A stretch of 28,954 nt of DNA from Campylobacterota bacterium (GTDB lineage Bacteria > Campylobacterota > Campylobacteria > Campylobacterales > Sulfurimonadaceae): positions 1-28,954 of the forward strand of contig JAYEKO010000087.1 of assembly GCA_034661055.1 (NCBI GenBank), in the 5' to 3' direction. Of the stretch, positions 2 through 28,838 are shown piece after piece. A program made the position numbers and the translations under genes. Below the pieces are notes generated by a model that had not been told where the DNA came from, ran no database searches, and worked only from the letters and a program-made list of their open reading frames with translations. Every line of letters starts with the position of its first letter. Position 1 is the stretch's first letter.

Positions 2-844
2 CAACTTGGGAATCTCTCTATCTCTATGATTCACTTAGGAGAGCAGACAGGGACACTTGCAGAGTCCATTGACAGACTTTCAGAGATCCTGCAAAACATT
101 CATGACAACCGTGTCAAACTTAAAAAAGCGACACGATACCCTCTCATTACCATTATTGCTATGGCTATTGCATTTACTGTGGTCATCACCTTTGTTGTTC
201 CACAGTTTGAAGAGCTTTTTAAAGAGAGTAAAACAGAGTTGCCATTTCCAACACTCATTTTACTATGGCTTGAAAATGCCATTTCCAGCTATGGTCCCTA
301 CATATTAGCAGGTGCTGTTGTTCTAGCTAGCATCTACTCTTACATGTATAAAAAAAGTGAGACCTTAGCACTAAAAAGTGATAAGTTTATTTTAAAAGTC
401 TATATTGTCGGAGCCGTTACCAAGTATGCTATGCTTGGGCGTTTTGTCTATATTTTTAATGTTTTAGTTCATGCCGGTATTCCTATTGTCGATGCTTTAA
501 AAGCTGCTACTGGGGTAGTTGACAACCGCTACATGAAACAGCAGTTTAATAAGATTACTGATGCCGTTGAGGAGGGGCGCTCTTTACATGAGGGGTTTGA
601 GTCATCAAACTTTTTTGAGAGTATGATTTTGCAGATGTTAAAAGCGGGTGAAGATGCGGGAGCACTCAATGTGATGTTAGATAAAATAACTTCGTACTAT
701 AATGCAAAATATGATAATATTATAGATAATGTATCGACCATGATTGAGCCTATTTTAATTGGTGCAATTGCAGGGTTTGTGCTTGTCTTAGCCCTTGGAA
801 TTTTCTTGCCAATGTGGTCCATGGCAGAAACTATGGGAATGTAA
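2..844 (+). CDS. Type II secretion F / PilC-family inner-membrane platform protein, 5'-truncated by the window edge
   Basis: Two T2SSF-type repeats (GEQTGTL..SI..L; GEDAGAL..ML), plus YP..T, VVPQF..LF, LP.PT and C-terminal IEP...IFLPMW motifs. The frame is open back to position 2. Confidence 0.92.
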   Translation, partial: QLGNLSISMIHLGEQTGTLAESIDRLSEILQNIHDNRVKLKKATRYPLITIIAMAIAFTVVITFVVPQFEELFKESKTELPFPTLILLWLENAISSYGPYILAGAVVLASIYSYMYKKSETLALKSDKFILKVYIVGAVTKYAMLGRFVYIFNVLVHAGIPIVDALKAATGVVDNRYMKQQFNKITDAVEEGRSLHEGFESSNFFESMILQMLKAGEDAGALNVMLDKITSYYNAKYDNIIDNVSTMIEPILIGAIAGFVLVLALGIFLPMWSMAETMGM

Positions 845-864
845 GTTTATAAGGAGAAATATTA

Positions 865-960
865 ATGGAAAATGAAGCTGGAACACTCACTATTGCTATT
901 GTCTCAGCAATAGTTTTAGGCTTTGCTTTGTGGATAATTCATAAAGTTAATGAGATATAA
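865..960 (+). CDS. 31-aa single-TM small protein (MENEAGTLTIAIVSAIVLGFALWIIHKVNEI)
   Basis: AAGGAG RBS at 851-856, ATG 865, TAA 958-960, one hydrophobic segment. It is below the ORF-track length cutoff. Confidence 0.7.
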   Translation: MENEAGTLTIAIVSAIVLGFALWIIHKVNEI

Positions 961-985
961 AAATGAGAATTACTTCGTATTTGGA

Positions 986-1429
986 CTAGTCGTCAGTTAA
1001 AGTAAATGTTCCATTAGTAGAGTTGTATGCCCAGTGTCGTGTTTTACAAGGTTTTCCAGTTTTACATGTAGAAGCACCTTTAGCACTGTTTGATGCCGGA
1101 CCTTTGTATTGACCACCTGAAAGCGTCCATCCAATAGCAGTAGCATTTTTTAAGATAGCATCTAATGGGCTTCCTAAAGAGTCAGGGTATCCATGAGTAT
1201 TCAAGTCAGCAGAAGCAATAGAAGCACCACAGGTAAATGTTCCCTCATTAATAATCCACTCTCCGTTACAAGCATCGAGGGCTACTTGAACCGACGAAGC
1301 AGTAGAAAGTTCCGCAGAGATTTTAGAGTTGTCACTGAGTCCGGAGAACTTTGGAACAGCAACGGATGCCAACACACCAATAATGACAATTACAAAGATT
1401 AGTTCAATTAGCGTGAAGGCTTTTTTCAT
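986..1429 (-). CDS. Prepilin-type (type IV pilin / T2SS pseudopilin-like) protein
   Basis: Class III signal MKKA|FTLIELIFVIVIIGVLASVAVPKF with Glu5; four Cys in the globular part. Confidence 0.9.
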   Translation of the reverse strand: MKKAFTLIELIFVIVIIGVLASVAVPKFSGLSDNSKISAELSTASSVQVALDACNGEWIINEGTFTCGASIASADLNTHGYPDSLGSPLDAILKNATAIGWTLSGGQYKGPASNSAKGASTCKTGKPCKTRHWAYNSTNGTFTLTDD

Positions 1430-1434
1430 AAATA

Positions 1435-1884
1435 CTAATATGTAAGAGTATCTAATTGATCATCATTGGCAATTACATTACATTTAGCTGTTGTTTTTGA
1501 ATCTGTAAATCCATCACAATTAATAACTAATGTAACATTTCTATCTGCCGCATTCAAGGTAAGTGTTGCAACTACTGCACTGTCTGTAAATATTGCAGTC
1601 TGTCCATTTCCAGCGCCACTTCCACCTATTACCCAACCTTTTCCTGAAATAGTTACTAAATCACTCAACGTAACATTTGCTGAAGTTTTAGTTTCCTCTA
1701 AGTCAACTATATTGACATAAGCAGATGGTATGGAACTAAATGCATCGCTCGCTACTTTTACGGTATTCGAAGCCTCAGCATTTTGCTTTAAGTTAGCAAA
1801 CTTAGGAATTGCAACAGCCGAAAGCACCCCAATAATTACAATAACAAAGATCAATTCAATAAGTGTAAAACCACTTCTCTTCAT
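1435..1884 (-). CDS. Prepilin-type (type IV pilin / T2SS pseudopilin-like) protein
   Basis: Class III signal MKRSG|FTLIELIFVIVIIGVLSAVAIPKF; C-terminal Cys pair (CDGFTDSKTTAKC); AAGGGT RBS upstream. Confidence 0.92.
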   Translation of the reverse strand: MKRSGFTLIELIFVIVIIGVLSAVAIPKFANLKQNAEASNTVKVASDAFSSIPSAYVNIVDLEETKTSANVTLSDLVTISGKGWVIGGSGAGNGQTAIFTDSAVVATLTLNAADRNVTLVINCDGFTDSKTTAKCNVIANDDQLDTLTY

Positions 1885-2037
1885 CTTCTTACCCTTTTAC
1901 GTTTAATTTTAATACTTTTAGTATAGGAAAGCTCTCGTTAAAGCCACCTTAACCATACCACTATATCGACACTTATTGCAGTTTTTAAACTTATTTTACC
2001 TATGATACTACAAAATTTACATGTAAAAGATTTAAAA

Positions 2038-3945
2038 ATGGCAAACTTATTACAATATGAAGACTCTCCTTACCTGCAACAGCATAAAGACAACCCCCTA
2101 GATTGGTACCCATGGGGTGATGAAGCCTTCCAAAAAGCAGAGCGTGAAGATAAACCTATTTTCATCTCCATAGGCTACAGCTCATGTCACTGGTGTCACG
2201 TTATGGAACATGAAGTATTTGAAAATGAGGAAGTGGCTGCTTTTATGAATGAGCACTTTGTTAGCATTAAAGTTGACCGTGAAGAGCGTCCCGATATTGA
2301 CAAGTATTATCAAGAGGTACATATGCTACTCAATCGTCGTCCAGGAGGCTGGCCTACCTCAATTTTTTCTACTCCACAAAACAAACCTATTTTTGCAGCA
2401 ACTTACCTACCTGTAGAGAGTAAAAATCAGTCCATGGGGTTTTCAGAGCTAACACGAATTATTAGTGAAAAAATTAGTGAAAATGACCCAAAACTTTATG
2501 AAAATGCCGATGAGATTGAGGGCTTCTTAAAGCACCACACGCATCCAAAAGAGGCAACACACCTTAAATTTGAGATTTCAAATACCTTTATTAAGCAGTG
2601 TAGTGACAACTTTGAAAAAAGTTTTGGAGGCTTCTCGGTTGAACCGAAATTTCCGCACACTTCAACACTTAACTCTTTAATGAATCTCTTTTTACTTACA
2701 GGAAACGACGATGCCAAAGATATGGCAGTTAAAACACTAACATCGATGCAGCGTGGTGGTATTTATGACATCATAGACGGAGGCTTTTGCCGCTACAGTG
2801 TTGACAGAGAGTGGCTGGTTCCACATTTTGAGAAGATGACCTACGACAATGGTCTGCTTTGTGAACTTTACGTTAAAGCATTTCACAGTTTTGGCAATGA
2901 GACCCTTAAAAGAACTGCCATAGAAATTGCAGAGTTTATGCTTGAGTTTATGAGTGAGAACGCTCAATTTTACTCAGCGAGTGATGCTGACACGGAGGGG
3001 GAAGAGGGAAAATATTTTATCTACAATTATGATGAGACGCTTAAACTCTTAACGCAGAACGGATTTACTCAAAAAGAGAGTGAGACAATCTTAATTAAAC
3101 TAAATATCTCACCAAATGGAAATTTTGAAGGCAGCTCTATTGCTAGAGTGGAAGACAACTCTAGACCAGTGTGGTTTTCTAAGGTACAGAAGCTCTTAAA
3201 AGAGCGGCGAACGAAAAGGATTTACCCGTTTATTGATAAAAAAGTTCAAACCTCATGGAATGCAATGATGATTAAAGCCCTATTTGCACTTAGCAGTATT
3301 GATGCTTCCTACAAAGAGATTGCCGTAAAACATCTAAACGCTTTACTAGAGATAATGCTTATTGACAACAGACTCTACCACTCTACACTTATTCATAAAA
3401 CTCCAAAAATAGAAGCGTTCCTTGAAGATTACGCCTACCTAGGAGTCACACTTATTGCAGCGTATGAGAATACCTATGATGAGCACTATTTAATTAAAGC
3501 ACAGAAGATGGCAAATGCTGCATTAGAGCGATATTACGACAAAGGAATGTGGTACTTTAGTAGAGATGAGTTTGAGACCAAAGCAGATATATCTGACAGC
3601 TCTTATCCTGGTTCAGTAGGTGTTATTGTTGACTTGCTCCTCTCGCTTGGTTCACTTCTAGATGAAAAATATCGCCATTTTGCTTTTAAAACATTAGAGT
3701 ACTACTCTTATGATTTAGCACGAAAACCTATTAATTCACCTTACCTTTTTAATCAGATGATTCGCTACATTAAAGAAGATAGAATTATTAAGAGTAATTT
3801 ACATGTAGGTTTTTTACACTACCCCTACGCCCTTAAAAAGTTTGATCCACAGAGTGATGGCTATATGATTTGTGGATTACAGAGCTGTTTTGCAACGACA
3901 AGTAACATAAGTGAAATTGATACGCTAATTTATAACTCTTTTTAA
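2038..3945 (+). CDS. YyaL/SSP411-like protein (DUF255 thioredoxin domain plus six-hairpin glycosidase-like domain)
   Basis: [50 protein letters not shown] motifs. The start at ATG 2038 (MANLL) is preferred over 2002 because it matches the family N-terminus. Confidence 0.93.
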
Positions 3946-3990
3946 ACTACCCTGCTCTATAATAGCTATAAGATGATTTAAAGGATAAGC

Positions 3991-4923: not shown

Positions 4924-4936
4924 AAGGATTTTTATT

Positions 4937-5050: not shown

Positions 5051-5075
5051 GTAATTTACATGTAAATTACTTACT
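5046..5075. repeat. Perfect 30-bp palindrome AGTAAGTAATTTACATGTAAATTACTTACT between convergent genes; possible bidirectional terminator
   Basis: Base-by-base check shows 15-bp arms with no spacer, centred at 5060/5061 on the iterated TACATGTA core. Confidence 0.9.
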
Positions 5076-6545
5076 CTAAATAAAAGAGAGAATTTCTCTC
5101 TCAATATTCTCTTTTTCAATCACACCATTGTGTGTAATTTCTTTATTAAAAAGCTCTTGGATCATTGCAGGAATAGCAACATTAGCTTCTTTTGAAATAG
5201 ACTCTAACGCATCAATATCTTGCGTATCATTCTCACCTGTTAGTGCATTAGCAATTGTTGGCGAAAATTTTGTCCACTCTGCCGTTGAGTAAGCAATCAT
5301 CACTAACTCTTTAGATTTACATGTATCGTACGTTTTGAAACATGTCGCAGTATGTGGGTCCATCAAGTACCCATCGTTAAAAGCACTTTTGATGTACGCT
5401 TTCCCCTCATCATCACTGCAGTAGTCTGCTACAAATAGCTCTTTTAGTTGTGTTAGCTCCTGTGCCGTAAGTTCATACATCTGCTTTGTATCTAAATCGT
5501 GCATTAACTCACGAGTTCGCTCTGCTCCATAAAGTCCGTAAAGAACACGTTCTACATTAGATGACTTTAAAATATCCATTGCAGGTGATGTAGTTAAAAT
5601 TAACTCACTATCACGCATATCGTAAATACCTGTATTGATAAGACGTGTTAAAATATTATTCTCGTTAGATGCAATAACTAACTTTTCAACCGGAAGACCC
5701 ATCTCCATCGCATAGTATCCACCAAGAACATTTCCAAAGTTTCCACTTGGTACATTAAGATAGACATTCTCACCTATAGCAACAGCACCTTGGCGAACCA
5801 CTTCGAGATAGTTGTGAATATGATAGATAATCTGAAAAATAATACGTCCAAAGTTTACTGAGTTAGCTGCTGAAAGAGCAATATTTTTCTCTTTTAAAGT
5901 CGCTTTAAAGCTACTTGAAGCCAAGAGGTTTTTCAAAGCACTCTGAGCATCATCAAAGTTTCCTTCAATTCCAATAACTTTTAAGTTAGTCGCCTCTTCT
6001 GTTACCATTTGGAGACGCTGTACATCAGAAGTCCCTTTGGCTGGGTACATACATGCCACTTTAACATTACTCTGATTTTTAAAAGTCTCTAGTGCAGCAG
6101 GACCGGTATCACCACTAGTTGCTGCTAAAATAAGATAATTCTCATTTCGCTCTTGTGCAATAGCAGAAAGCACTTTTCCAAAAGGCTGCAGTGCCATATC
6201 TTTAAAAGCACGGGTAGGTCCATGGTAAAGTTCACTCACATAAAGATCATCTTTTACTTTTACCACAGGAACAGGATTACTTGGGTCATCAAACTTATCA
6301 TAAAGCGCCAAAGCGTCATCTATAACATCTTGTTTTACATCTATATTAAATACATGTAAAAAATCTGCTGCAAGCTCTTTGTAGTGAGAATTTCTATGTT
6401 TTTCTAAAAAATCCAGACCTAATTTAGGTAGATCTTTAGGTACATATAGACCACCAAACGAAGCGATTGGGCTTAAAATTGCCTCAGAAAAAGTCACCTC
6501 TACAGGGTGCTGTCCATCATTTCCACGTGTTTCAATAAAGTTCAT
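5076..6545 (-). CDS. thrC: Threonine synthase
   Basis: ELYHGPT.AFKD.AL (PLP lysine), AATSGDTG, SANSVNFGR, VPSGNFGN, SPAMDILKSSN.ER, DPHTA motifs. Confidence 0.96.
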   Translation of the reverse strand: MNFIETRGNDGQHPVEVTFSEAILSPIASFGGLYVPKDLPKLGLDFLEKHRNSHYKELAADFLHVFNIDVKQDVIDDALALYDKFDDPSNPVPVVKVKDDLYVSELYHGPTRAFKDMALQPFGKVLSAIAQERNENYLILAATSGDTGPAALETFKNQSNVKVACMYPAKGTSDVQRLQMVTEEATNLKVIGIEGNFDDAQSALKNLLASSSFKATLKEKNIALSAANSVNFGRIIFQIIYHIHNYLEVVRQGAVAIGENVYLNVPSGNFGNVLGGYYAMEMGLPVEKLVIASNENNILTRLINTGIYDMRDSELILTTSPAMDILKSSNVERVLYGLYGAERTRELMHDLDTKQMYELTAQELTQLKELFVADYCSDDEGKAYIKSAFNDGYLMDPHTATCFKTYDTCKSKELVMIAYSTAEWTKFSPTIANALTGENDTQDIDALESISKEANVAIPAMIQELFNKEITHNGVIEKENIEREILSFI

Positions 6546-6584
6546 AACTACTCTTATTTAATTTTTTGAAATTATATCTAAATA

Positions 6585-8219
6585 CTAAGAGATAGCTAAT
6601 AATACAATCTCTTTTGCTTCATCTTGAATCTGCTTTAGGTGCTGAGCAGAGATAAAGCTCTCAGCATAAATTTTGTAGATATCTTCAGTTCCTGATGGTC
6701 GTGCTGCAAACCAGCCATTTTTTGTCACTACTTTTAGACCACCAATTTTAGCACTGTTTCCACTTGCTTTTGTAAACTTATCTACAATCGTTTCACCTGC
6801 TAAAGTTGTTGAAGAGATATTATCTGCAGTAAGATTTTTTAGTAAGGCTTTTTGCTCAAATGTAGCTGGAGCATCAATACGGGCATAGTAAGATACTCCA
6901 AACTTTTTTTCAAACTCTCCATAGATCTCACCAGGATCTTTTTTAGTAGTAGCCCTAATTTCCAAAGCAAGTAGGTTCATAATAATCCCATCTTTATCAG
7001 TAGAAAAAGCACTACCGTCATGACATAAAAATGAAGCCCCAGCGCTCTCTTCACCACCAAAACCAAGCGAGCCGTTATTTAGCCCCTCAACAAACCATTT
7101 AAAACCAACTGGTACTTCGTGAACATCTCTACCTAAAGAGTCTGCTACTCTGTCAATCATAGAGCTTGAAACAGCTGTCTTTCCAATGCCAAGACTATGA
7201 GACCATGCGTGACGATGTGAAAACAGATACCAAATCGAAACAGCTAAATAGTGATTAGGATTCATAAGACCGACACTTGGTGTAACAATACCGTGACGAT
7301 CAAAATCGGGGTCATTGGCAAATGCAATATCATACTCATCTTTTAATGCAATAAGAGAGCTCATGGCATAAGCAGATGAACAGTCCATACGAATTTTTCC
7401 ATCATGATCACAACTCATAAAGCTAAAGGTCGGATCAACATGCTCATTTACGATGTCCATGTTGAGACCATATATCTCATTAATTTTTTGATACACCGCA
7501 ATTCCAGATCCACCTAAAGGATCAACGCCAATCTTTAAGTTAGCAGCCTTAATTGCTGCCATATCAATAACAGTCTCTAACCCTAAGACATAGGGAGTAA
7601 TAAAGTCAAACTCTTCAAGAAAATCACTCTTTAATGCTACATCCAATGAAACTTTTTGAACTTCAGCAAGTCCACTGTTTAAAATTTCATTGGCGCGCTT
7701 CTCAATAAGAGAAGTTACGTCAGCATCGGCAGGTCCACCATGAGGAGGGTTGTATTTAAAACCACCATCACTAGGAGGATTATGTGATGGCGTAATGACA
7801 ACACCATCACAAAGCACTTTACTGTCTCTATTGGCTTGTAAAATAGTAAATGATACAACAGGGGTTGGTGTATAACTATCATTTTTTGCAATTTTACATG
7901 TAACTCCATTTGCAACACATACCTGTATTGCACTCAACTGTGCCGAAGTGGACAGTGCATGAGTGTCTTTTGCAATAAACAGTGCTCCTGTAATACCTGC
8001 AGATTTTCGGTACTCACACACTGCCTGAGTAATGGCAAAAATATGTGCTTCATTAAAACTTCTCTTACTGCTGCTTCCACGATGTCCTGATGTTCCAAAC
8101 GAGACACGCTCGGTCGGCACTTTAACATCAGGATTTTGAGTGTAGTATGCTGATATTAACTGAGGAATATTTTCTAAAATATCCTTAGGAGCCTGTTTTG
8201 AAGCTAGTATGTGTGCCAT
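6585..8219 (-). CDS. pgm: Phosphoglucomutase (alpha-D-glucose-1,6-bisphosphate-dependent)
   Basis: [16 protein letters not shown] (catalytic Ser), [46 protein letters not shown] motifs. Confidence 0.96.
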
Positions 8220-8221
8220 GA

Positions 8222-10138: not shown

Positions 10139-13100
10139 TCAATTAGAATTACCAACTAACTTTTTTCTAAATACAACAGAGTAGAGAAGCGGTATAAAGA
10201 TTAAATTCAGTACCGTTGCCCAGATAATTCCAAAACCAAGCGACACTGCCATTGGTTGCAGTATCATTGCTTGACCTGAGGCAAAGAAAATAAGTGTTGA
10301 AAGACCCAACACAGTTGTAATAGAAGTAAGTAAAATAGGACGCAGACGTGTTCGTGCCAACTGCATTAACTCCTCAAAAGAGCTTGCCTTTTTAATAAAA
10401 CTGACCATTATTAGCCCATCATTAACCACAACACCCATCAAGCCAACAACACCAAGCATGCCAGGCATTGTCATATTGAGCCCAATTAACAGATGACCCA
10501 CAAATACGCCTAGTAGCACTAAAGGAATGGTACTTAAGACAATAAGTGATAGTTTAAGTGAATCAAAGAGCCATACTAAGGTAATAAAAATTAAAATTAT
10601 GGCTGCAATACCTGCTTGTGCCATCTCCTGTTTTGTTTTAGCATTCTCCTCTTGTTCTCCTTTAATATCTACACTATAGCCATCATCTTGCAACTCTTGA
10701 AGTGTTGCCTCAATACCTTGCATCAACTCTTCAGATGTAATGATTTTTTTATCTAGTGATGCGACCACAGAACGTATTCGTTTTCCATTCTCTTTGTTTA
10801 TTTTTACATATGACTTTTCAAGAATAAAATCAGCTACATCACAAAGAGCAATAAACTCTCCAGAGCCTGGTATCTGTAACTCAAACCCATAAATTGAGGA
10901 GAGTGTATCTTTTTTATTACCCTCAATACGGATACGCACCAACCCCTCTTCATTAAACATCTTGCCATACTCACCTTTTAAGTAATATGAGCGCAACTGT
11001 GCATTTAAGACCTGCTCATTAAATCCCAGTTTTTGTCCATAGTCATTAACTCTAAGCTTTAACTCTTTCTCACCTGTATCAGCATCATTAGCGATGTCAT
11101 GAACACCAACAATCTCTCCTAGTCTTGATTGAAGCTTCTCAAGTCCACTAAGTAATGCCTCGTCGCCCTTACCACCTAAGGCAATCTCAACATCATGTGC
11201 TACAATTCCTGTTCCTGCAATAGTGACACTGAGCTCTTCAAAAAGTATTTCACCATCTTTTTCAACACTTTTTAGTGGTTCCATCCACTCTCGAACATTT
11301 TCGCTTATGGACTTGGCAGTATTATGACGTTTTAGCAGATCTGCGTCATACTCTAATGATAAAATAGGATTTATATATTTATTAAAAAGATTATCTGGTG
11401 CACGTTCATGTAGGTCAATAAACACCTGAAAAAGGTTTTCATTTAGCTCTGCCTCATTTTTAGCATTCATTCTCATACCTACAACAGAAGTAACTGAAGA
11501 CATATCTTCTTTGTCTAGCTTTTCAAGAAGTATTTTTTCAATTTTAGAGACAATAGCCTCTGTTTCATCAAGATCATTGTTAATATTTACCTTTCCACTC
11601 ACATATACCTGAGTCACATCAAAGTCAGGGAAAAGTTGGAATTTGCTGTTCTTAATAAAGAGTGCAGTAGCCCCCACAATAAGTGTGACCATAATAATTA
11701 GTGAGAGAATTCGTCTCTTAAAAAGTACATGTAAAACGGTGTCATACCATCTCCACAGATGCTCCCAAATAGAGTGTGTCATATGCCCCTCTTTACGAAT
11801 ACGTAAGAACTCATATGAGTGTAGTGGTAGAAAATAGAATGCTTCAAATAGTGAGCTAATTAGTAAAATAGAAATCATAACTGGAAGAATTTTAATAAAT
11901 GTCCCCATCTCTCCAGATAAAATAAGTAGCGGTAAAAAAGCAAAAACAGTCGTTGCTGTAGCAGTTAGTACTGCTGGGAACATCTCTAAAGAGCCAATAA
12001 CAACAGCTTCACGTCTATCTTTTCCCTCTTCTAGATGTCGGTAGATATTTTCAGCAACTACAATCGCCTCATCTACTAACATTCCAAGAGCAATCAGCGC
12101 TCCTAGTAAAGAGAGCATATTAAGACTGTAGCCTAAGTAATTTGTAGCAACAAGCCCAATCATAAAACTAAGAGGAATTCCCATGGCAACAACAAGAGCA
12201 ATCCCACGATTAACAAAGACCAACATAGCTAGAAATACCAACATCAAGCCAAACAAAATGTTTGCAAAGACTGTATTGAGACGGTTTTTAATCCAGACCG
12301 AAGTATCTGTATAGATTTCAAACTTTATGTTAGGATATTTTTTAGTATAATCTTTCATTACTGTTCTGATCTCTTTAACTAAAGCGATAGAACTTCCTGT
12401 TTTTGCCTTATTAATATTGACTGAAATATTTTTAACACCGTTATAGTGTGACAACTCACTCTCGTCACTCAACTCAAATGAGATGTCAGCTATGTCTCCT
12501 AAACGAAGACGTTTACTGCCAACGGTTATGAGGCTGTCTTCAATACTTTTTTGCTCTTTTTCACCATTATAGGTACTAATATAGAGATGTTCGCCCTGCT
12601 CTTTTATGGTTCCAATAGGAAAAATAGAACTTAAGTTTTGTAGGGCAGAGATAACCAAGTTGACATCTAAGTCATAAGCTCTGATTTTTTTCTCATTAAT
12701 GCGAATAACCAACTCTACATCAGCATCACCACGAATACTAATATCACTCAGGTCTTTAAAACCGCTAAGTGAGCTTTTTAATTCATCTGCATATTTTAGA
12801 AGCTCTACAGTTGGAACATCCCCAGCTATAGCAATTAAAACTAAAGGAATCTCATTTACATGTATTTTAGCAATTGGCTCATTCATGTCCGATGGTAGAT
12901 CACGCTTAATTTTTGCTATAACATCTTTAACATCATTTAAAACACTGATATTGTTAGAATTTGGTTTGATATCTACTGTCATGGAGAATACACCATTTTT
13001 AATCACAGTCTGTACATCATCAAGTTCGTTAATATTTTTTAGATCATCTTCAATGTTTTTTACAGCCATCTTATCTAAGACATCAGCACTTGTACCTGAA

Positions 13101-15404: not shown

Positions 15405-15439
15405 GCTTGCCCTTAATATAATTTTTACATGTATTTTAC

Positions 15440-17761: not shown

Positions 17762-17763
17762 GT

Positions 17764-20286: not shown

Positions 20287-20299
20287 TACTCTGCACTAA

Positions 20300-21842: not shown

Positions 21843-22668
21843 TCATCCTTAAAATAAATCCTCTATCAAACTTGGAATAATCTTTATAAAATTCTAATGA
21901 TTGTACCTTAAAGTCTCTAACATAGGCTTCAACCTTAGCTTTTTGATCATATCCCATCTCACATGCGAAATAATTTATGTGGCGTTTCTCTACCTCATTT
22001 AAAAGTTCTTTAATAATCTCGTCCCCTACACTTCCACCAAAAAGTGCCAAATCAGGCTCATATGAGAGATTCTGTTCTAAGGGAGCGTCCATAGCAATAT
22101 AGGGAGGGTTAGAAACAAGAAAATCAATAGGCTCACTAATAGTAGTCAGCAGACTTCCTTCACGAAGTTCAATTCTATCACTCAACTCAAATTTTTCAAT
22201 ATTTATTTTAGCAACTTCTAAAGCTTTAGGACTAATATCTACTCCGATAAACCGAGCCTTAGGCAGGTGCTGTGCTAAAATAATACTAATTATCCCACTT
22301 CCAACTCCTACTTCAGCAATGGTAAGTTCATCATTATGATTTACATGTAAAAGAACCTTGTCAATTAAAAGTTCTGTTTCGGGACGAGGGATTAAAGCAC
22401 CCTCTTTAATAAAGAAGTTTTGAGAATAGAAACTAACATCATTTGTGATGTACTCTAAAGGTTCATGTTTGGTACGCCTCTCGATCCAGTTAAAAAGAGT
22501 TGGTGTACTTGGCACTATATCATTTACATGTAAAATAAGCCAGAGCTGGTCTTGCTTCATATAGGCACGAAAGAGCAACTCTGCTTCACGCTTTGGGTTT
22601 TCAACCACACTCTCTAAAGCTAGAGAGATAAACTCAAGCCACTCTTTTACACTTCTTGAGGCGGACAT
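21832..22668 (-). CDS. prmC: Release factor glutamine methyltransferase
   Basis: EPLEYI, LIPRPETE, GVGSGII, D.S..AL and SNPPYI motifs. Confidence 0.95.
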   Translation of the reverse strand: MSASRSVKEWLEFISLALESVVENPKREAELLFRAYMKQDQLWLILHVNDIVPSTPTLFNWIERRTKHEPLEYITNDVSFYSQNFFIKEGALIPRPETELLIDKVLLHVNHNDELTIAEVGVGSGIISIILAQHLPKARFIGVDISPKALEVAKINIEKFELSDRIELREGSLLTTISEPIDFLVSNPPYIAMDAPLEQNLSYEPDLALFGGSVGDEIIKELLNEVEKRHINYFACEMGYDQKAKVEAYVRDFKVQSLEFYKDYSKFDRGFILRMSDD

Positions 22669-23897: not shown

Positions 23898-23941
23898 ATA
23901 TTACGCCTTAAATTTTTTTATCATTGTAGCAAAGAAGCTGT

Positions 23942-24133: not shown

Positions 24134-24284
24134 AATAATTCTCCTAGTTTTTCGAAATAATACAGAAGTTATTTAAGAGATGCTTTAAAAAAATCAACCT
24201 AATGTGACGCTTTAAGTATATTTTTTGTTTAGTTTATTCGTCATAAGTGGTTAGCTGTTTTAGATTGTATGCTACAATCTCACG

Positions 24285-24587: not shown

Positions 24588-24607
24588 TTTACATGTAAAA
24601 GGTACCT

Positions 24608-26560
24608 ATGGCACTAGTTGATTTACTAAACGTCTCCAAACACTACGAAGCACAAAAAATTCTCGAAGCCATAAACTTTCATGTCGATGAGGGTGAGCGT
24701 ATTGTTATTGTCGGTAAAAACGGCAGCGGGAAATCGACCATTATGAAAATTGTCAACGGAACACTTGATGCCGATGAGGGTAAGCGAATCACCAAGCAGA
24801 ATCTGCATATTAAAATGCTATCACAAGTGCCCCAATTTCAAGATGGTCATAATGTACGTGAAGCAGTTGAGGCCGGCTTGGGTGAACTTAAAAGTGCACG
24901 CATACGTTTTGAGGAGATCTCAAATGAACTTACAACAGACTTTGAGAATCCTGAACTCTTAAAAGAACATTCAGAACTTTCCAACTTTCTTGACCATCAC
25001 AGTGCCTGGAATCTTGATGAAAAAATTGAGAGAGTACTGCAGTTTTTTCAACTCAAGGAGTATGAAAAGAAGTCTGTAATTATGCTAAGTGGTGGGGAGC
25101 AGCGTCGTGTTGCCCTCGCCTCACTTCTGCTTCAAAAACCAGATATCTTGCTTTTAGATGAGCCTACCAATCATCTTGATGTCTATATGGTAGAGTTTTT
25201 AGAAGAGCTTATTTTAAAGGAAAAGTTCACCCTTGTCTTTATTTCACATGATCGTTACTTTATAGATCAGATTGCGACAAAGACCATTGAGATAGAAGAT
25301 TGTAAGCTTCGTGAGTTCAAGGGAGGATATTCGAGCTACCTGACTCAAAAGTCAGAACTTCTTCGTACCATGCAGAAGCAGCATGATAACCTGCTGCGTC
25401 TTCTTAAAGCTGAAAATGAGTGGTTAGGCAAAAGTGTCCGTGCTCGTCTAAAACGAAATGAAGGACGAAAAAAACGGGTTCTTGATCTACGAGAAGATGC
25501 TAAAACCAACCCTGCTAGAATTCGAAAAATTCAAGTGGAGCTCCATCGTGAAGCCAAACATTTTAACCGTGATAAAAGTGTCAATAAGCAGAAGATGCTC
25601 TTTGAGGTTGAAAATTTGGAACTTACACTAGGGAACAAGCTCTTAGTTAAAAATTTCAATACTCGTATTTTACAGCGTGATGTCATCGCCATTGTCGGAC
25701 CAAATGGAAGTGGTAAATCTACTCTTTTAAAAGCCCTACTTGGACGACTTGAACCTACAGAAGGAACTATTAAACAGGGTGAGTTCAATATTGGATATTT
25801 TGATCAACACCGCGAAATGCTTGATGACTCCAAGAACCTCATTGAGACATTCTGTCCTATGGGTGGTGACCGTGTTGAAGTTCAAGGAAAAAATTTACAT
25901 GTATTTGCCTATCTGAAAAACTTTTTATTTCCACGAGAGTTCCTAGATAAAAAAATTGGAGTCTTAAGTGGTGGCGAGAAAAACCGTGTCGCCCTCGCCC
26001 TGCTCTTTACAAAACAAGTTGACTGTCTTATTTTAGATGAACCAACTAATGACTTAGATATTCCTACCATTAATATTTTAGAAGAGCAACTTCAAAGCTT
26101 TCCTGGCGCAGTTATTATTGTCAGTCACGATCGCTATTTTGTCGATAAGATTGCAAAAAAGCTCTTTGTATTTCAAGGCAATGGGCTAGTTGAAGAGTCA
26201 TTTCAGCAGTACAGCCAATATCTTGAGATAGAAAAAGAGATACGAGAAGTCTCACAGATAACAACCATATCTCAAGATGAAAAGCCTGCAAAAGAGAGTA
26301 AGCCAAAAACAAAAGCCCTAAAGCTATCTTTTAAAGAGAAAAAATCTTTAGATACTCTTCCTGTAGAGATTGAAGCACTAGAAGAGAAGATGGAGCAACT
26401 CAACAGCTGTCTAGCAGACCCCTCATGTTACGAAGAGAGAGGTATCTCAACGCTTGCCGATGAACTTACAGCTTTGAAAGAGACGTATGAACTCAAAATT
26501 GAAGCACTGCTTGAGATTGAAGAGAAACTTGAAGAGATAGAAGAAGGAAAATCTTCCTAA
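24608..26560 (+). CDS. ABC-F family ATPase, Uup-like
   Basis: Two ABC domains (GKNGSGKST/LSGGE/LDEPTNHLD and GPNGSGKST/LSGGEK.R/LDEPTNDLD), ARLKRNEGR linker, C-terminal KLSFKE coiled coil. Confidence 0.93.
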   Translation: MALVDLLNVSKHYEAQKILEAINFHVDEGERIVIVGKNGSGKSTIMKIVNGTLDADEGKRITKQNLHIKMLSQVPQFQDGHNVREAVEAGLGELKSARIRFEEISNELTTDFENPELLKEHSELSNFLDHHSAWNLDEKIERVLQFFQLKEYEKKSVIMLSGGEQRRVALASLLLQKPDILLLDEPTNHLDVYMVEFLEELILKEKFTLVFISHDRYFIDQIATKTIEIEDCKLREFKGGYSSYLTQKSELLRTMQKQHDNLLRLLKAENEWLGKSVRARLKRNEGRKKRVLDLREDAKTNPARIRKIQVELHREAKHFNRDKSVNKQKMLFEVENLELTLGNKLLVKNFNTRILQRDVIAIVGPNGSGKSTLLKALLGRLEPTEGTIKQGEFNIGYFDQHREMLDDSKNLIETFCPMGGDRVEVQGKNLHVFAYLKNFLFPREFLDKKIGVLSGGEKNRVALALLFTKQVDCLILDEPTNDLDIPTINILEEQLQSFPGAVIIVSHDRYFVDKIAKKLFVFQGNGLVEESFQQYSQYLEIEKEIREVSQITTISQDEKPAKESKPKTKALKLSFKEKKSLDTLPVEIEALEEKMEQLNSCLADPSCYEERGISTLADELTALKETYELKIEALLEIEEKLEEIEEGKSS

Positions 26561-26591
26561 TGCATAGTCGTAAATTTTTACATGTAAATAA

Positions 26592-26600
26592 TGCTACAAT
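26592..26600 (+). promoter_or_regulatory. Extended -10 promoter TGCTACAAT for the beta-helix gene
   Basis: TGnTAnAAT match 25 nt upstream of ATG 26626; GAGGT RBS at 26614-26618. Confidence 0.6.
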
Positions 26601-26625
26601 ATCTACAAAAATAGAGGTATAAATC

Positions 26626-27837
26626 ATGAAAAAAATCATATTTTTACTACTTGCTTCAATTTTATTAGATGCGAAAGACTACACTATACTAGTAGCTCCA
26701 CCTAAAAGTGAAGCGTACTCAATTGCCAAAGAACGGGTAATTACACACCAATATAATGCTTTCTCAAATATCTCTGATGCTTTGGTGTATGCAGCCAAAC
26801 TTTTAAATAGAGGTCACGACGACAAGGTCACTCTTAAAATCAGTGAAGGAGTCTATAGTGGCCATAAAGGGTACTGGAAAATTCCACCTATAAGTAATGC
26901 AAAAGCGAGCTTAATTATCTCAGGTGGGTATGAAAAACATTTTAAAGAGAGCAACGCGTTTGATACACAAAGCATACTTAATGTAACAGGTAACCACTCC
27001 CACTCCATCATTCAACTTGAAGGTTCTAGAAATAAGTTAAAACAACTCAGCATCAGTGGTCTAATTATTGATGCAGCGCCTAGTAATAGCTACGCTGTTG
27101 ATGGGTCACTATTAAAGTATCGTTCACGAACAACTCCCATACTTGCTTTTGGTTATCTAGAGACAGAAGCTCTTTTTATAACGGACAATGTTTTAATGAA
27201 CAGTGCGCATATGGCGTTAGCACCTCTTATTCGAGCAGCTAATGAGAACGCTTATGTTGTCATCAAAAACAACTTCTTTGTCAATAATGTCTATGCTCTT
27301 AAAATTGATGCTGCTAACTTTAGAAACAGACCCTATAGATATCTTCTCATAAACAACACCTTTGTCTCCAACCTTCCATATAATTTTGACACCACAAGTT
27401 CAACAGTAGCGACGGTAGAGATTGCAAGTAAAAGTTCATCCCCTTCAAACATAATCATAGCCAATAATATCTTTGCTCATAATGCTAGTGCCGCTATTGC
27501 TCCTCTTTATAAAGAGAGTCGTATGGCAAATATAACCATTCACAATAATAATTTTTTTAACAATGCTACGCTCTTTCATCAGAGCAAGCAAAGCAGTGGA
27601 GCTATGATTATTAAAGATAATGCAACTGGAAAGTATATCAATTATGATATTGAGACCATGAAAAAAACATTCTCTTACGACATCGCCAACAACTATGCCC
27701 TTGACCCTAAAATTATGTTGCCTAAAACAGTCAATCAAAATTTAGCCACAAAAATGCCCCTTAATGTCGAGCGTCTCTTTTCTAAAAACCCAAAGCTAAC
27801 AAAATTGGGTGTACGCAAAGTGTTAGCAACAAAGTAA
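26626..27837 (+). CDS. Secreted right-handed parallel beta-helix (pectin lyase-like) protein
   Basis: Signal peptide, F..I..AL...K.SEG.Y and I.GGY N-terminal features, repeated I.NN.F..N units (IKNNFFVNN, INNTFVSN, IANNIFAHN, IHNNNFFNN). Confidence 0.75.
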   Translation: MKKIIFLLLASILLDAKDYTILVAPPKSEAYSIAKERVITHQYNAFSNISDALVYAAKLLNRGHDDKVTLKISEGVYSGHKGYWKIPPISNAKASLIISGGYEKHFKESNAFDTQSILNVTGNHSHSIIQLEGSRNKLKQLSISGLIIDAAPSNSYAVDGSLLKYRSRTTPILAFGYLETEALFITDNVLMNSAHMALAPLIRAANENAYVVIKNNFFVNNVYALKIDAANFRNRPYRYLLINNTFVSNLPYNFDTTSSTVATVEIASKSSSPSNIIIANNIFAHNASAAIAPLYKESRMANITIHNNNFFNNATLFHQSKQSSGAMIIKDNATGKYINYDIETMKKTFSYDIANNYALDPKIMLPKTVNQNLATKMPLNVERLFSKNPKLTKLGVRKVLATK

Positions 27838-27841
27838 GTCA

Positions 27842-28516
27842 ATGAGACTTTTTAAATCACTATTTCATCCTTATGTATGGTTTCGAGCTATCTTTTCAGC
27901 CTTACTCATTGGGATTGTATTGTACTTCATTGTAATGCTCTATACTACTGTAGTCGTTGAGGGTATTCTTCAAACAGACATCGCATCAATTGGAATCTTT
28001 TTTAAACTGCTGTTTTATATACTATCACTACTTGGATATCTTCTGTCAATATATGCTACTGTCATACTCTTTCCCATAATATACACACTAAAAGTCAGCT
28101 TCGATGCAGATAGGTACATAAATTATTTAGCACGTCAATTTGATGTTAAACTGAGTCCAACTTCAGTAACATCCAAATTTAAATACTTTCTTTTAGCAGT
28201 TTTTTATGTTGTTCTATCTGCTTTTTTAGCCCTATCACTCATAATAGCAGTTGATGATACACCTTATGAGTTCTTAATCATTTTTGCTCTAGCTCCACTC
28301 TATATACTGATTTATAAAAACTGGATGTACTCTCTAAAACGAATACTTGGTAATGATTTTACAGTAGTGTATGAGAAGCATAGAGGACGTTTTATTAGAA
28401 AAGGAATTTTTTACATTATACTGATGCATATTCCTTTTCTCTTTTTGCTACAACCGTGGTTTTACATTCTTTTTGCAAATCTCTATTTCAAACAACGTAA
28501 TCAACTACCTTGCTAA
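27842..28516 (+). CDS. Multi-TM membrane protein (EI24/CysZ-like suspected)
   Basis: Five to six hydrophobic segments and IPF.F.L.P near the C-terminus; 4 nt after the beta-helix gene. Confidence 0.6.
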   Translation: MRLFKSLFHPYVWFRAIFSALLIGIVLYFIVMLYTTVVVEGILQTDIASIGIFFKLLFYILSLLGYLLSIYATVILFPIIYTLKVSFDADRYINYLARQFDVKLSPTSVTSKFKYFLLAVFYVVLSAFLALSLIIAVDDTPYEFLIIFALAPLYILIYKNWMYSLKRILGNDFTVVYEKHRGRFIRKGIFYIILMHIPFLFLLQPWFYILFANLYFKQRNQLPC

Positions 28517-28778
28517 CTCGTGTCACCTCTTTTATTACACTTACTGCTTCTAAGTGTGCAGGATGAACAGCATAAGCACTTAAATCCTCTTTTGTCTCAA
28601 ATGTTGAATATAAAGAGAGGTCAAATGCTCGTTCACTCCCATTAAAATCAACTCCTACTTCCATCTTTTTAAGTGGCTCTATTTTCTCAACTAAAGACTC
28701 CAGCATAGTTTTGACTTTAGCAATATTCTCTTCTCTATTCTCATCTTTAAACTCAAACATTACAATATGTACAATCAT
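28488..28778 (-). CDS. Dabb family (stress-responsive A/B barrel) protein
   Basis: MI.HIV.F.FK, D..L.S.F...EDL..Y..HP.H and VVDY motifs; AAGGA RBS. Confidence 0.92.
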   Translation of the reverse strand: MIVHIVMFEFKDENREENIAKVKTMLESLVEKIEPLKKMEVGVDFNGSERAFDLSLYSTFETKEDLSAYAVHPAHLEAVSVIKEVTRVSKVVDYVV

Positions 28779-28838
28779 GGTTCTAATCCTTTTTGTGAAT
28801 TTTATCTAATTTACATGTAAAAATGGTACTATTTAGAA

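What the first reader, a model, noticed from the sequence alone, without database searches (positions are those of the whole stretch)
341..28821. Highly iterated palindrome TTTACATGTAAA dispersed across the window (HIP1/DUS-like system candidate)
Seen: TACATGTA occurs 17 times (core starts 341, 1063, 2018, 3800, 5057, 5318, 6351, 7895, 11726, 12857, 15426, 22342, 22525, 24590, 25896, 26579, 28812), about one per 1.7 kb. Seven are the full 12-mer TTTACATGTAAA (2016, 5055, 22340, 22523, 24588, 26577, 28810). A rough mononucleotide model at about 36% GC predicts about 1 copy of the 8-mer and about 0.01 of the 12-mer. I found only 3 ACATGT hexamers outside the 8-mer (5340, 19937, 22665), so the longer word is what is enriched. 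Established: such dispersed words in both coding and intergenic DNA characterise cyanobacterial HIP1 (GCGATCGC, with nested methyltransferase sites), Neisseria/Pasteurellaceae uptake sequences and chromosome-organising sites (matS, SlmA/Noc sites). CATG is a known methyltransferase target in Helicobacter. Inference: this lineage carries a genome-wide sequence tag, with nested CATG/ACATGT, for DNA uptake, methylation-linked repair/recombination or nucleoid-protein binding. I do not know of a description of this motif in Campylobacterota but cannot verify novelty.
Basis: partly seen in the sequence, partly recalled or inferred. Interest (0 to 1): 0.9.

Follow-up and report, generated by a model that had tools for sequence, protein, structure and literature searches.

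The report
Hyper-abundant TACATGTA palindrome in Campylobacterota genomes
A Sulfurimonas-like bacterium and many relatives write the 8-base palindrome TACATGTA into genes and spacers about once every 2 kb and keep it intact between species, much like the self-DNA tags known from cyanobacteria, Neisseria and Haemophilus.

Summary
TACATGTA occurs 17 times in the window (0.62 expected). It occurs 899 times in the 1.9-Mb genome, where it is the commonest 8-mer, against 20-78 expected by Markov models and 132 by synonymous-codon shuffling.

- **Sharpness:** one-mismatch variants sit at background.
- **Placement:** copies lie in genes in three frames and make Leu-His-Val the most over-used tripeptide. 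Spacers hold about twice the density.
- **Conservation:** sites arise by substitution in place. 47-75% are conserved with a congener at 73% identity, against 11% background.
- **Distribution:** the word is enriched in 35 of 38 genomes of a second, Sulfurospirillum-like family and in 10 of 39 of the window's own family. It is enriched in none of 324 genomes of 24 other families.
- **Other features:** flanks differ by lineage, a mobile island lacks the word, and density is even around a complete chromosome.

An orphan NlaIII-type CATG methyltransferase often accompanies the word but is neither necessary nor sufficient. I read it as a HIP1/uptake-sequence-like self-DNA tag; its reader is unknown. 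Ten literature searches found no report. This scan noted analogous words in other phyla, not this one.

The parts
341..348 (.). TACATGTA copy inside the C-terminal part of a T2SSF pilus-platform gene (frame TAC-ATG-TA, peptide YMY)
1063..1070 (.). TACATGTA copy in a 147-aa ORF of unknown family (- strand, ACA-TGT frame, peptide STCK)
2016..2027 (.). Full 12-mer TTTACATGTAAA near the start of a DsbH/thioredoxin-like gene (TTA-CAT-GTA, LHV). The 8-mer is conserved in 4 of 4 aligned congeners.
3800..3807 (.). TACATGTA copy in the same DsbH-like gene (LHV frame). Conserved in 1 of 3 aligned congeners.
5055..5066 (.). Full 12-mer in the spacer between convergent genes (PPK2 and threonine synthase-like)
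5318..5325 (.). TACATGTA copy in the threonine synthase-like gene (- strand, ACA-TGT frame, DTCK). Congeners carry 1- to 4-mismatch versions, so the site was made by substitution.
6351..6358 (.). TACATGTA copy in the threonine synthase-like gene (LHV frame). Conserved in 3 of 4 aligned congeners.
7895..7902 (.). TACATGTA copy in the phosphoglucomutase gene (ACA-TGT frame, VTCK)
11726..11733 (.). TACATGTA copy in the AcrB-type RND pump gene (LHV frame). Absent from all 5 aligned congeners (TGCATGTA, GGTATGCA and others), so it was gained in this lineage or lost in the others.
12857..12864 (.). TACATGTA copy in the AcrB-type pump gene (IHV). Exact in 2 of 5 congeners and GACATGTA in the other 3.
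15426..15433 (.). TACATGTA copy in the divergent spacer between rsmH and a class II aldolase gene. Conserved in 4 of 4 aligned congeners.
22340..22351 (.). Full 12-mer in the PrmC-like protein methyltransferase gene (LHVN)
22523..22534 (.). Full 12-mer in the same PrmC-like gene (LHVN)
24588..24599 (.). Full 12-mer in the 20-bp spacer between a 100-aa ORF and an ABC-F gene
25896..25903 (.). TACATGTA copy in the ABC-F ATPase gene (LHVF)
26577..26588 (.). Full 12-mer in the spacer after the ABC-F gene
28810..28821 (.). Full 12-mer in non-coding DNA near the window's end

Best explanation
SHOWN: TACATGTA is a clade-specific, hyper-abundant DNA word. In this genus the extended form is ATT-TACATGTA-AAT. 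It is created in place by point substitutions in genes and spacers. It is kept exact at the DNA level between species. It is spread evenly along the chromosome and is missing from a recently integrated mobile element. It occurs in a Sulfurospirillum-like family and patchily in the window's own Sulfurimonas-like family, with lineage-specific flanks ('dialects'). INFERRED (my preferred mechanism, about 45%): a dimeric sequence-specific factor reads the palindrome as a mark of the cell's own DNA during natural transformation, at uptake and/or when incoming DNA is recombined. Copies then spread and are maintained because DNA that carries them is taken up or recombined preferentially, as for Neisseria DUS, Pasteurellaceae USS and, as recently proposed, cyanobacterial HIP1. 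In most carriers the central CATG is probably N6-adenine methylated by a solitary NlaIII-type methyltransferase sitting among housekeeping genes. That methylation may modulate recognition but cannot be obligatory. The reader protein is not identified.
For: - **Real and selected word:** 899 copies against 20-78 expected. In CDS, 753 against 132 (synonymous shuffle) and 33 (codon-order shuffle). It is the commonest 8-mer of the genome. All 24 one-mismatch variants have O/E 0.38-1.46.
- **DNA level, not protein level:** three reading frames are used (513, 194 and 47 copies). LHV is the most enriched tripeptide (419 against 80 expected), and 377 of the 419 are written TTACATGTA. Spacer density is 0.86-1.11 per kb against 0.43 per kb in genes.
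- **Maintained between species:** in 190 kb aligned with congener G002 (73% identity), 36 of 77 G000 sites and 36 of 48 G002 sites are shared. Background 8-mer identity is 10.9%. One-mismatch words are conserved in 6 of 78 cases. Conserved LHV tripeptides are nucleotide-identical in 13 of 18 cases, against 4575 of 31718 for all conserved tripeptides.
- **Substitution origin:** partners of unshared sites differ at 1-6 positions without indels.
- **Clade-specific:** the word is at >=3x the reversed control word and >=99 copies in 35 of 38 genomes of family f23 and 10 of 39 of f1. This holds for 0 of 324 genomes of 24 other families, where the maximum is 50 copies (I set the threshold after seeing the table).
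- **Dialects:** the flanks are ATT in g1, (C)CT in g38 and g3, and CTT in f23 and G158.
- **Foreign DNA lacks it:** a 39-kb integrase / type I R-M / replicase island in G158 has 0 copies where about 10 are expected (P x n = 0.004).
- **Even coverage:** in G046, 30 windows of 20 kb hold 3-15 copies (mean 9.9, variance 6.5, chi-square p 0.92) across both replichores.
- **Transformation hardware present:** G000 has ComEC, DprA and two MSHA-type type IV pilus clusters.
- **Precedent:** abstracts report that methylated HIP1 raises transformation more than 100-fold (bioRxiv 10.1101/2024.09.10.611283) and that HIP1 is proposed as an uptake sequence (PMC13756078).
- **Methyltransferase link:** an orphan D12-class enzyme lies downstream of xseA, and the same arrangement holds in all 4 congener genomes that have the gene. 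Homologues at 53-54% identity are named M.NlaIII by their sources. Motif-less relatives pair the enzyme with an ICEA-family nuclease. Within f1 it is present in 7 of 10 enriched genomes against 2 of 29 non-enriched.
Against: - No uptake, binding or methylation was measured, and no reader protein was found.
- The competence genes are not specific to carriers. The pilus secretin occurs in 325 of 401 genomes of the order, and ComEC and DprA also ring in non-competent control genomes.
- The methyltransferase is neither necessary nor sufficient. G158 (611 copies, complete) and G149 (1128) have no D12-class or N6/N4-class methyltransferase. G316 (914 copies) lacks a homologue. G062 and G122 have an orphan copy but only 28 and 27 words. 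78 genomes of other families have the enzyme without enrichment.
- Known uptake sequences are not palindromes, and DUS often sit as inverted pairs in terminators. Here intergenic copies show no preference for convergent spacers.
- In G000 the spacing is Poisson-like rather than clearly even (variance/mean 0.93).
- Conservation between species could reflect a continuing mutational or repair drive instead of selection for a reader.
Confidence: 0.45

Rival explanations
1. Methylation-linked biased repair or drive (Elhai's model for HIP1). A mismatch- or nick-processing activity that works in the context of the methylated CATG converts near-matches into TACATGTA and repairs decayed copies. On this view the word is a by-product with no reader and no function of its own.
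For: - The nested CATG and the orphan NlaIII-type methyltransferase lie next to DNA-processing genes: xseA in this genus and recO in L024.
- In f1 the enzyme is present in 7 of 10 enriched genomes against 2 of 29 non-enriched.
- In f23, genomes with the enzyme average about 964 copies against about 588 without it (my hand sums).
- A MutS_I-domain gene is present in G000.
- The exact 8-mer is razor-sharp.
- HIP1 precedent (PMC4390886, abstract start seen).
Against: - High density persists with no D12-class or N6/N4-class methyltransferase found in G158 and G149 and with no homologue of the enzyme in G316. The ratio of one-mismatch variants does not track the enzyme: 1.12 and 1.13 in carriers G132 and G007, 0.70 in G316, which lacks it.
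- An orphan methyltransferase occurs without the word in G062 and G122.
- CATG as such is not enriched (6220 against 5347 expected), and one-mismatch neighbours are not depleted (O/E 0.93).
- No Vsr-family nuclease was found in G000, which is 83% complete.
- CATG methylation cannot explain specificity for the four outer bases or the flank dialects.
Confidence: 0.2
2. Binding-site array for an abundant nucleoid-associated protein. The protein coats or compacts the resident chromosome, or distinguishes it from foreign DNA, and this is unrelated to transformation.
For: - A 14-bp palindrome is the typical target of a dimeric DNA-binding protein.
- Sites are everywhere on the chromosome at even density and are absent from an integrated mobile element.
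- Close pairs favour centre-to-centre distances of 11-12 and 17 bp: 13 of the 32 pairs that lie under 60 bp apart.
- Flank dialects fit co-evolution with a protein.
Against: - The known palindromic organiser sites (matS, Noc NBS, SlmA SBS, parS; recalled) number tens per genome and are confined to or excluded from macrodomains. Here there are 900-1700 sites with no ori/ter bias.
- No candidate protein was identified.
- Such strong sequence dependence, at the cost of changed amino acids, is unusual for nucleoid proteins.
Confidence: 0.2
3. Recombination or repair signal of the Chi type. The word would be read by the AddAB/RecBCD-class machinery or another recombination enzyme on resident DNA, independently of uptake.
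For: - The word is genome-wide, conserved and absent from foreign DNA.
- The HIP1 preprint abstract suggests a Chi-like component.
- The methyltransferase neighbours xseA and recO.
Against: - Known Chi sites (recalled) are asymmetric and strand-skewed and are only a few-fold over-represented. This word is a perfect palindrome at 25- to 84-fold enrichment.
Confidence: 0.1
4. No special system: the excess comes from base composition, codon or amino-acid usage, a dispersed mobile element (MITE/REP), or restriction avoidance of neighbouring words.
For: The genome is AT-rich (36% G+C). TTA, CAT and GTA are ordinary codons.
Against: - Every null model fails by 6- to 40-fold.
- The sequence logo carries information only within +/-3 bases of the core.
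- Orthologous positions differ by substitutions, not insertions.
- ACATGT outside the 8-mer is near expectation (204 observed; the 15 other NACATGTN words sum to about 237 expected).
- 324 genomes of 24 related families with similar composition show no excess.
Confidence: 0.01

Closest known systems
HIP1 (GCGATCGC) and alternate highly iterated palindromes of cyanobacteria
   Same: Both are 8-bp perfect palindromes at 0.3-0.6 per kb, in genes and spacers alike. Both are far above Markov and codon-aware expectation and are conserved between species beyond background. Both hold a nested 4-bp methyltransferase site served by an orphan enzyme, and both show lineage exceptions. (PMC4390886 and PMC5861425: abstract starts seen. 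PMC13756078 and bioRxiv 10.1101/2024.09.10.611283: abstracts read.)
   Different: The word is different and AT-rich, in a different phylum. The nested site is CATG with a predicted m6A mark, not GATC/CGATCG. The methyltransferase is missing from some high-density genomes. Spacing in G000 is Poisson-like rather than quasi-periodic. The outer flanks vary by lineage.
DNA uptake sequences: DUS of Neisseriaceae and USS of Pasteurellaceae (recalled; no paper read here)
   Same: The copy number and density are similar, about one per 1-2 kb. Both are written into coding DNA at the cost of particular peptides, are commoner in spacers, have lineage 'dialects', and are rare in recently acquired DNA. The hosts have type IV pili, ComEC and DprA.
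   Different: DUS and USS are not palindromes and have an orientation. DUS often form inverted pairs at terminators, which is not seen here. Preferential uptake has been measured for DUS and USS and is untested here. No ComP-like receptor was identified.
Methylation-dependent DNA discrimination in Campylobacter jejuni transformation (orphan methyltransferase CtsM, RAATTY; recalled). One search listed only methylome papers that mention RAATTY. I did not see the original paper.
   Same: It is in the same phylum. An orphan adenine methyltransferase marks a short palindrome-like site on the cell's own DNA, and the competence system is pilus-like.
   Different: RAATTY is a common degenerate 6-mer and is not known to be hyper-enriched. 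Here an exact 8-mer is enriched 25- to 84-fold, and the methyltransferase is dispensable for its persistence.
Chromosome-organising palindromes (matS/MatP, NBS/Noc, SBS/SlmA, parS/ParB; recalled)
   Same: All are short palindromes dispersed on the chromosome and read by dimeric proteins.
   Different: Those arrays have tens of sites restricted to or excluded from the terminus or origin region. This word has 900-1700 sites with even density across both replichores.

Membership tests
HIP1-type highly iterated palindrome | Short perfect palindrome, many-fold over Markov and codon-aware expectation, in coding and non-coding DNA genome-wide | tested here: met
   899 copies against 20-78 expected; 753 against 132 in CDS; 754 coding and 138 intergenic
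HIP1-type highly iterated palindrome | The sequence GCGATCGC in cyanobacteria | tested here: not met
   The word is TACATGTA, and the relatives' record titles name Campylobacterota. It can therefore only be an analogue, not HIP1 itself.
HIP1-type highly iterated palindrome | Sites conserved between species above neutral expectation | tested here: met
   47% and 75% of sites are shared, against 10.9% background and 7.7% for one-mismatch words
HIP1-type highly iterated palindrome | Presence goes with orphan methyltransferase(s) that recognise nested sites | tested here: inconclusive
   An orphan NlaIII-type enzyme is present in 7 of 10 enriched against 2 of 29 non-enriched f1 genomes. It is missing from G158, G149 and G316, and it is present without the word in G062, G122 and 78 genomes of other families. 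Its specificity is inferred from source names and ICEA neighbours only.
HIP1-type highly iterated palindrome | Quasi-periodic spacing | tested here: not met
   In G000 the gap CV is 0.95 and the variance/mean ratio is 0.93. G046 windows are mildly under-dispersed (6.5/9.9), which is not significant.
DNA uptake sequence (DUS/USS) | DNA carrying the word is taken up or transforms preferentially | not testable with these tools
   This needs uptake or transformation assays in a cultured carrier.
DNA uptake sequence (DUS/USS) | About one copy per 1-2 kb over the whole genome, with lineage-specific dialects | tested here: met
   Density is 0.26-0.61 per kb in 11 genomes. Flanks are ATT, CCT, CTC or CTT according to lineage.
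DNA uptake sequence (DUS/USS) | Under-represented in recently acquired DNA | tested here: met
   There are 0 copies in a 39-kb integrated element of G158 (P x n = 0.004). Only one genome was examined in this way.
DNA uptake sequence (DUS/USS) | Competence machinery present, with a dedicated receptor | tested here: inconclusive
   ComEC, DprA and two MSHA-type pilus clusters are present. The secretin is in 325 of 401 genomes of the order regardless of the word. No receptor was found.
Region-specific chromosome organiser sites (matS, NBS, SBS, parS) | Sites confined to or excluded from the ori or ter macrodomain; tens of copies | tested here: not met
   In G046, 30 windows hold 3-15 copies everywhere, including the two GC-skew switch points. 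Genomes carry 899-1727 copies.
REP/MITE-type dispersed repeat | Longer conserved unit, extragenic, spread by insertion | tested here: not met
   There is no sequence information beyond +/-3 bases. 84% of copies lie in genes. Orthologous positions differ by substitutions only.
Restriction-modification target | Cognate nuclease beside the methyltransferase, and site avoidance | tested here: not met
   In this genus the methyltransferase lies between xseA and sppA with no nuclease. CATG is not avoided. The ICEA-linked copies of motif-less relatives sit in CATG-poor DNA.

The most novel reading that the evidence does not exclude
TACATGTA is a DNA-uptake or recombination signal for natural transformation. 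It is shared by Sulfurospirillum-like and several Sulfurimonas-like lineages, has lineage dialects, and has optional m6A gating at its central CATG. That would make it the first uptake-sequence system in Campylobacterota. It would also be a palindromic one, whose scattered presence within a single genus (8 to 850 copies per genome in g2) marks recent gain or loss of an unknown reader gene.
Probability: 0.35. Interest if true: 0.85.

Novelty: new member of a known kind. Interest (0 to 1): 0.72.

Why it matters
Hyper-abundant self-DNA words are known in detail from only three groups: Neisseriaceae, Pasteurellaceae and cyanobacteria. How they arise and who reads them is still debated. This case adds an independent, AT-rich example in a phylum already known for natural competence and methylation-based discrimination of DNA.

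- It spans two families that include cultured species, so uptake, methylome and pull-down experiments are feasible.
- Copy number varies about 100-fold between species of one genus. This is a natural experiment for finding the responsible gene by phylogenetic profiling.
- If the word boosts transformation as methylated HIP1 does in Synechococcus (abstract), adding it to constructs could make Sulfurospirillum and Sulfurimonas easier to engineer.
- The word visibly shapes proteomes (Leu-His-Val excess). It could also serve as a compositional marker for binning and for spotting foreign DNA in these genomes.

Tried and rejected
- **Maximum-order Markov ranking.** This is uninformative for the word because its own sub-words dominate the counts. 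I used lower orders and a model trained with the sites masked instead.
- **12-mer census.** It under-counts lineages with other flanks: G007 has 71 12-mers, while the record that holds locus L024 has 1196 8-mers. I replaced it with the 8-mer census.
- **"The methyltransferase clade predicts the word."** A quick tree put the 12 motif-linked enzymes in one 14-row group (SH-aLRT 89, careful search unfinished). The wider survey then showed orphan copies without the word and the word without the enzyme. I dropped it as a cause.
- **"Genomes without the enzyme are decaying."** One-mismatch O/E looked higher in G158 and G149, but more genomes broke the pattern. Rejected.
- **Pilus secretin as a correlate.** It is present in 325 of 401 genomes. 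Rejected.
- **VirB4/ComB-type system.** Not found in G000, which is 83% complete.
- **C5 methyltransferase found late.** It belongs to a BglII-like R-M pair on a 4.9-kb contig. GATC-type words are near expectation, so it is unrelated.
- **Viral contigs with the 14-mer.** 57 of the 80 fetched loci had a single copy and the maximum was 5.
- **Hairpin, terminator or promoter role.** Copies are uniform along genes and equally dense in tandem, divergent and convergent spacers. The f23 flank (AAAG) removes the -10-like look of the g1 flank. Rejected by reasoning.
- **Literature.** All 10 searches and the passages read gave no report of this word. The library holds open-access papers and bioRxiv only. 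REBASE and methylome supplements were not seen and could bear on the methylation claim.

Full report
The window contains TACATGTA at exactly the 17 stated positions. Dinucleotide-preserving shuffles give 0.62 copies. The 12-mer TTTACATGTAAA is at the 7 stated positions, with 0.01 expected. Only three ACATGT copies lie outside the 8-mer. The window is one whole contig (C87) of a 1,908,352-base, 92-contig assembly that is 83% complete.

**2. The excess is genome-wide and survives every null model.**
- The genome holds 899 copies of the 8-mer and 246 of the 12-mer. The 8-mer is the most frequent 8-mer of all, ahead of TTTTAAAA in a 36% G+C genome.
- Markov models of order 0-4 expect 32-78 copies. 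An order-3 model trained with the sites masked expects 20.
- I called 1752 ORFs with a crude greedy caller (ORFs of at least 90 aa, covering 92% of the DNA). Inside them there are 753 copies. Shuffling synonymous codons within each gene gives 132 +/- 11, and shuffling codon order gives 33 +/- 5 (20 replicates each).
- The 24 one-mismatch variants lie at 0.38-1.46 of expectation, so the enrichment belongs to the exact word.
- ACATGT outside the word is near expectation, and CATG as a whole is not enriched.
- A logo of 894 sites shows information only in the three bases on each side, giving ATT-TACATGTA-AAT. No longer repeat unit lies behind the word.

**3. The word is a DNA-level feature that overrides protein coding.**
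- 754 copies lie in ORFs, 138 in spacers and 7 on boundaries. Spacer density is about twice the genic density: 0.86-1.11 against 0.43 per kb.
- In genes the word sits in all three frames: nTA-CAT-GTA 513 times, ACA-TGT 194 times and TAC-ATG-TA 47 times.
- Leu-His-Val is the most over-represented tripeptide of the proteome (419 against 80 expected), and 377 of the 419 are written TTACATGTA. HVN, TCK and FTC follow.
- Copies are uniform along genes. They show no preference for tandem, divergent or convergent spacers.
- Along the contigs the sites are close to Poisson (variance/mean 0.93, gap CV 0.95). No contig is empty.
- In the window, 12 copies lie in ordinary housekeeping genes and 5 in spacers. 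The host genes include those for an AcrB-type pump, threonine synthase, phosphoglucomutase, PrmC, an ABC-F protein and a DsbH-like protein.

**4. Sites are made in place and then kept.**
- Orthologous regions of five congeners (67-81% identity) show the window's sites either conserved or replaced by versions with one to several substitutions, never by indels. 14 of 35 aligned site-by-genome cells are exact, against 10-17% for any 8-mer.
- In 190 kb aligned with G002 (73% identity), 36 sites are shared, 41 are only in G000 and 12 are only in G002. That is 47% and 75% conservation against 10.9% background.
- One-mismatch words are conserved in 6 of 78 cases.
- Where both species encode LHV, 13 of 18 are identical at all nine bases, against 4575 of 31718 for conserved tripeptides in general.
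- So the exact DNA word, not the peptide, is what is maintained.

**5. Phylogenetic spread.**
- Record titles of the closest methyltransferase loci name uncultured Sulfurimonas, "Helicobacteraceae" and Campylobacterales MAGs.
- I ran an 8-mer census of 401 genomes of the order with the reversed word as control. I set my criterion after seeing the table: at least 3x the control and at least 99 copies.
- By that criterion the word is enriched in 35 of 38 genomes of family f23, where the enriched genomes hold 104-1727 copies. G062 (28), G122 (27) and G136 (109) fall short.
- It is enriched in 10 of 39 genomes of the window's family f1. It is enriched in 0 of 324 genomes of 24 other families, where the maximum is 50 copies.
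- The enriched f1 genomes are G000 (899), G316 (914), G227 (850), G158 (611), G132 (608), G403 (294), G280 (232), G397 (171), G308 (101) and G194 (99).
- Three further genera of f1 (G007, G009, G023) carry 0.37-0.61 copies per kb in samples.
- Named records give the same picture: 1328 copies in CP093061.1, 1298 in a Sulfurospirillum-labelled assembly and 1196 in a Campylobacterota MAG, against 10-22 in two motif-less MAGs.
- f23 shares the methyltransferase-trmA arrangement of the Sulfurospirillum-labelled records, so it is probably that family.
- Within the single genus g2, counts run from 8 to 850.

**6. Dialects, foreign DNA and chromosome position.**
- The core is constant but the flanks differ: ATT in g1, (C)CT in g38 and g3, CTC/CTT in g19, and CTT in f23 and in G158. 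G227 shows no flank preference and a broader ACATGT excess.
- In the first 400 kb of the complete genome G158, two stretches have no copy where about 10 are expected (P x n = 0.004 and 0.009). One is a 39-kb element with two integrases, ParA, a type I R-M system, a resolvase and a replicase. The other is a 36-kb stretch with sulfate-activation, T2SS, S-layer and glycosyltransferase genes followed by ribosomal genes.
- In the complete chromosome of G046, 30 windows of 20 kb hold 3-15 copies (mean 9.9, variance 6.5, chi-square p 0.92). This includes the regions where GC skew changes sign. That excludes terminus- or origin-restricted organiser sites.

**7. The methyltransferase lead.**
- G000 encodes three DNA methyltransferases that I found: an MmeI-like type IIL enzyme, a C5 enzyme paired with a BglII-like nuclease on a small contig, and a 326-aa D12-class adenine enzyme.
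- The D12-class enzyme lies 4 bases downstream of xseA with no nuclease nearby. The same arrangement holds in the four genomes of the genus that have the gene.
- Homologues at 53-54% identity are named "Modification methylase NlaIII" by their sources.
- In motif-less relatives the homologue follows an ICEA-family gene, in two cases (G028, G073), or other nuclease-like ORFs, and it sits in CATG-poor DNA. ICEA is, from memory, the NlaIII-nuclease family. CATG specificity is therefore likely, but it is inferred.
- Carriers hold it as an orphan in housekeeping contexts: dxr/serine hydrolase-MTase-tsaD in f1, and MTase-trmA, folP or transglutaminase neighbours in f23.
- Within f1 it is present in 7 of 10 enriched against 2 of 29 non-enriched genomes. 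In f23, genomes with it average about 964 copies against about 588 without it (hand sums). Relatives are not independent, so these figures overstate the link.
- Against a causal role: G158 and G149 have no D12-class or N6/N4-class methyltransferase, and G316 lacks a homologue. G062 and G122 have an orphan copy without the word. 78 genomes of other families carry the enzyme without enrichment.
- The enzyme is a frequent companion of the word, not its cause.

**8. Competence genes.** G000 has ComEC, DprA, a type II secretion system and two MSHA-type type IV pilus clusters. The clusters are ordered secretin - AAA NTPase - two unknown ORFs - T2SSE - T2SSF. From memory this mirrors the C. jejuni ctsD-P-X-E-F transformation locus. 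No VirB4 was found. These genes make transformation plausible but are not specific to carriers: the secretin is in 325 of 401 genomes.

**9. Interpretation.** The anatomy matches the small class of selected "self-DNA words": HIP1 of cyanobacteria and the uptake sequences of Neisseriaceae and Pasteurellaceae. The matching features are:
- an exact short word at about one per 2 kb;
- imposition on coding sequence;
- conservation at the DNA level;
- a clade-specific distribution with dialects;
- absence from a mobile island;
- even spread around the chromosome.

I favour a reader that acts in uptake or recombination of transforming DNA (about 45%). Three reasons support this. That mechanism is the only one known to both spread and preserve such words. 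The phylum is naturally competent. And HIP1 itself is now reported to enhance transformation in a methylation-dependent way (abstracts).

A methylation-linked repair drive (about 20%), a general nucleoid protein (about 20%) and a Chi-like signal (about 10%) are not excluded. Composition, codon usage, mobile repeats and restriction avoidance are excluded.

**10. Novelty.** Ten full-text searches and four passage look-ups found no description of this word or of any uptake sequence or iterated palindrome in Campylobacterota. The library covers open-access papers and bioRxiv only. REBASE and methylome supplements were not seen. Earlier notes of this scan describe analogous words in Bacteroidota, Kiritimatiellota, Myxococcota and a giant virus, but not this word. 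I class it as a new member of a known kind.

Noticed in passing
window 26-844 and 1435-1884; G000 C52 (L303 3200-14497) and C9 (L302 2965-9731): There are two paralogous MSHA-type type IV pilus clusters, ordered secretin - AAA NTPase - two unknown ORFs - T2SSE - T2SSF. The window opens with the C-terminal part of a T2SSF gene and a prepilin-like ORF, so contig C52 may join the window's start. From memory the order mirrors the C. jejuni cts transformation locus.
   Followed up: partly
G000 C22 (L367 868-4945): A 4.9-kb contig carries a C5 cytosine methyltransferase (cut by the contig end), a BglII-like restriction endonuclease and a RecD2-type helicase. AGATCT and related words are near expectation (O/E 0.81-1.23), so the system may be recent.
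   Followed up: partly
G000 C24:18366-21068 (L003): A complete MmeI-like type IIL restriction-modification enzyme of 900 aa, with all five MmeI domains.
   Followed up: no
L149-L151 (G158:C1:152008-191152): A 39-kb integrated element with lower G+C (0.329 against 0.353). It carries two integrases, ParA, a type I R-M system, a resolvase, a PIN protein and a replicase, and it has no TACATGTA copy.
   Followed up: yes
L333-L338 (G227:C1:100001-220000): This genome has 850 copies of the 8-mer but no flank preference. It has many ACATGT copies outside the 8-mer (65 in 120 kb) and one-mismatch variants at 1.46 of expectation. This is a looser form of the signal than in the other carriers. It may be a different specificity or a signal that is building up or decaying.
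   Followed up: no
G000 genome-wide, e.g. C16:1984-2009, C61:46871-46896: 32 pairs of sites lie under 60 bp apart. Centre-to-centre distances of 17 bp (6 pairs), 12 bp (5) and 11 bp (2) are favoured, and several pairs form longer palindromes. Gaps under 50 bp number 29, against roughly 19 expected.
   Followed up: partly
L308 (G046:C2:1-7000): The second contig of a complete f23 genome is 39.9 kb and plasmid-like, with an ImpB/MucB polymerase and IS21 genes. It carries a second NlaIII-type methyltransferase and 5 TACATGTA copies in 7 kb, so this extra replicon does carry the word.
   Followed up: no
L018 (G028), L321 (G073), L019 (G019): In motif-less relatives the same methyltransferase family sits in restriction-modification cassettes, with an ICEA-family nuclease and in two cases a small HTH controller. 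The local CATG density there is low (0.5-1.7 per kb).
   Followed up: partly
G000 C69:8017-8334: A MutS_I domain lies in a 990-aa open frame, so this lineage seems to have a MutS1-type mismatch-repair protein. I recalled that Helicobacter and Campylobacter lack one.
   Followed up: no
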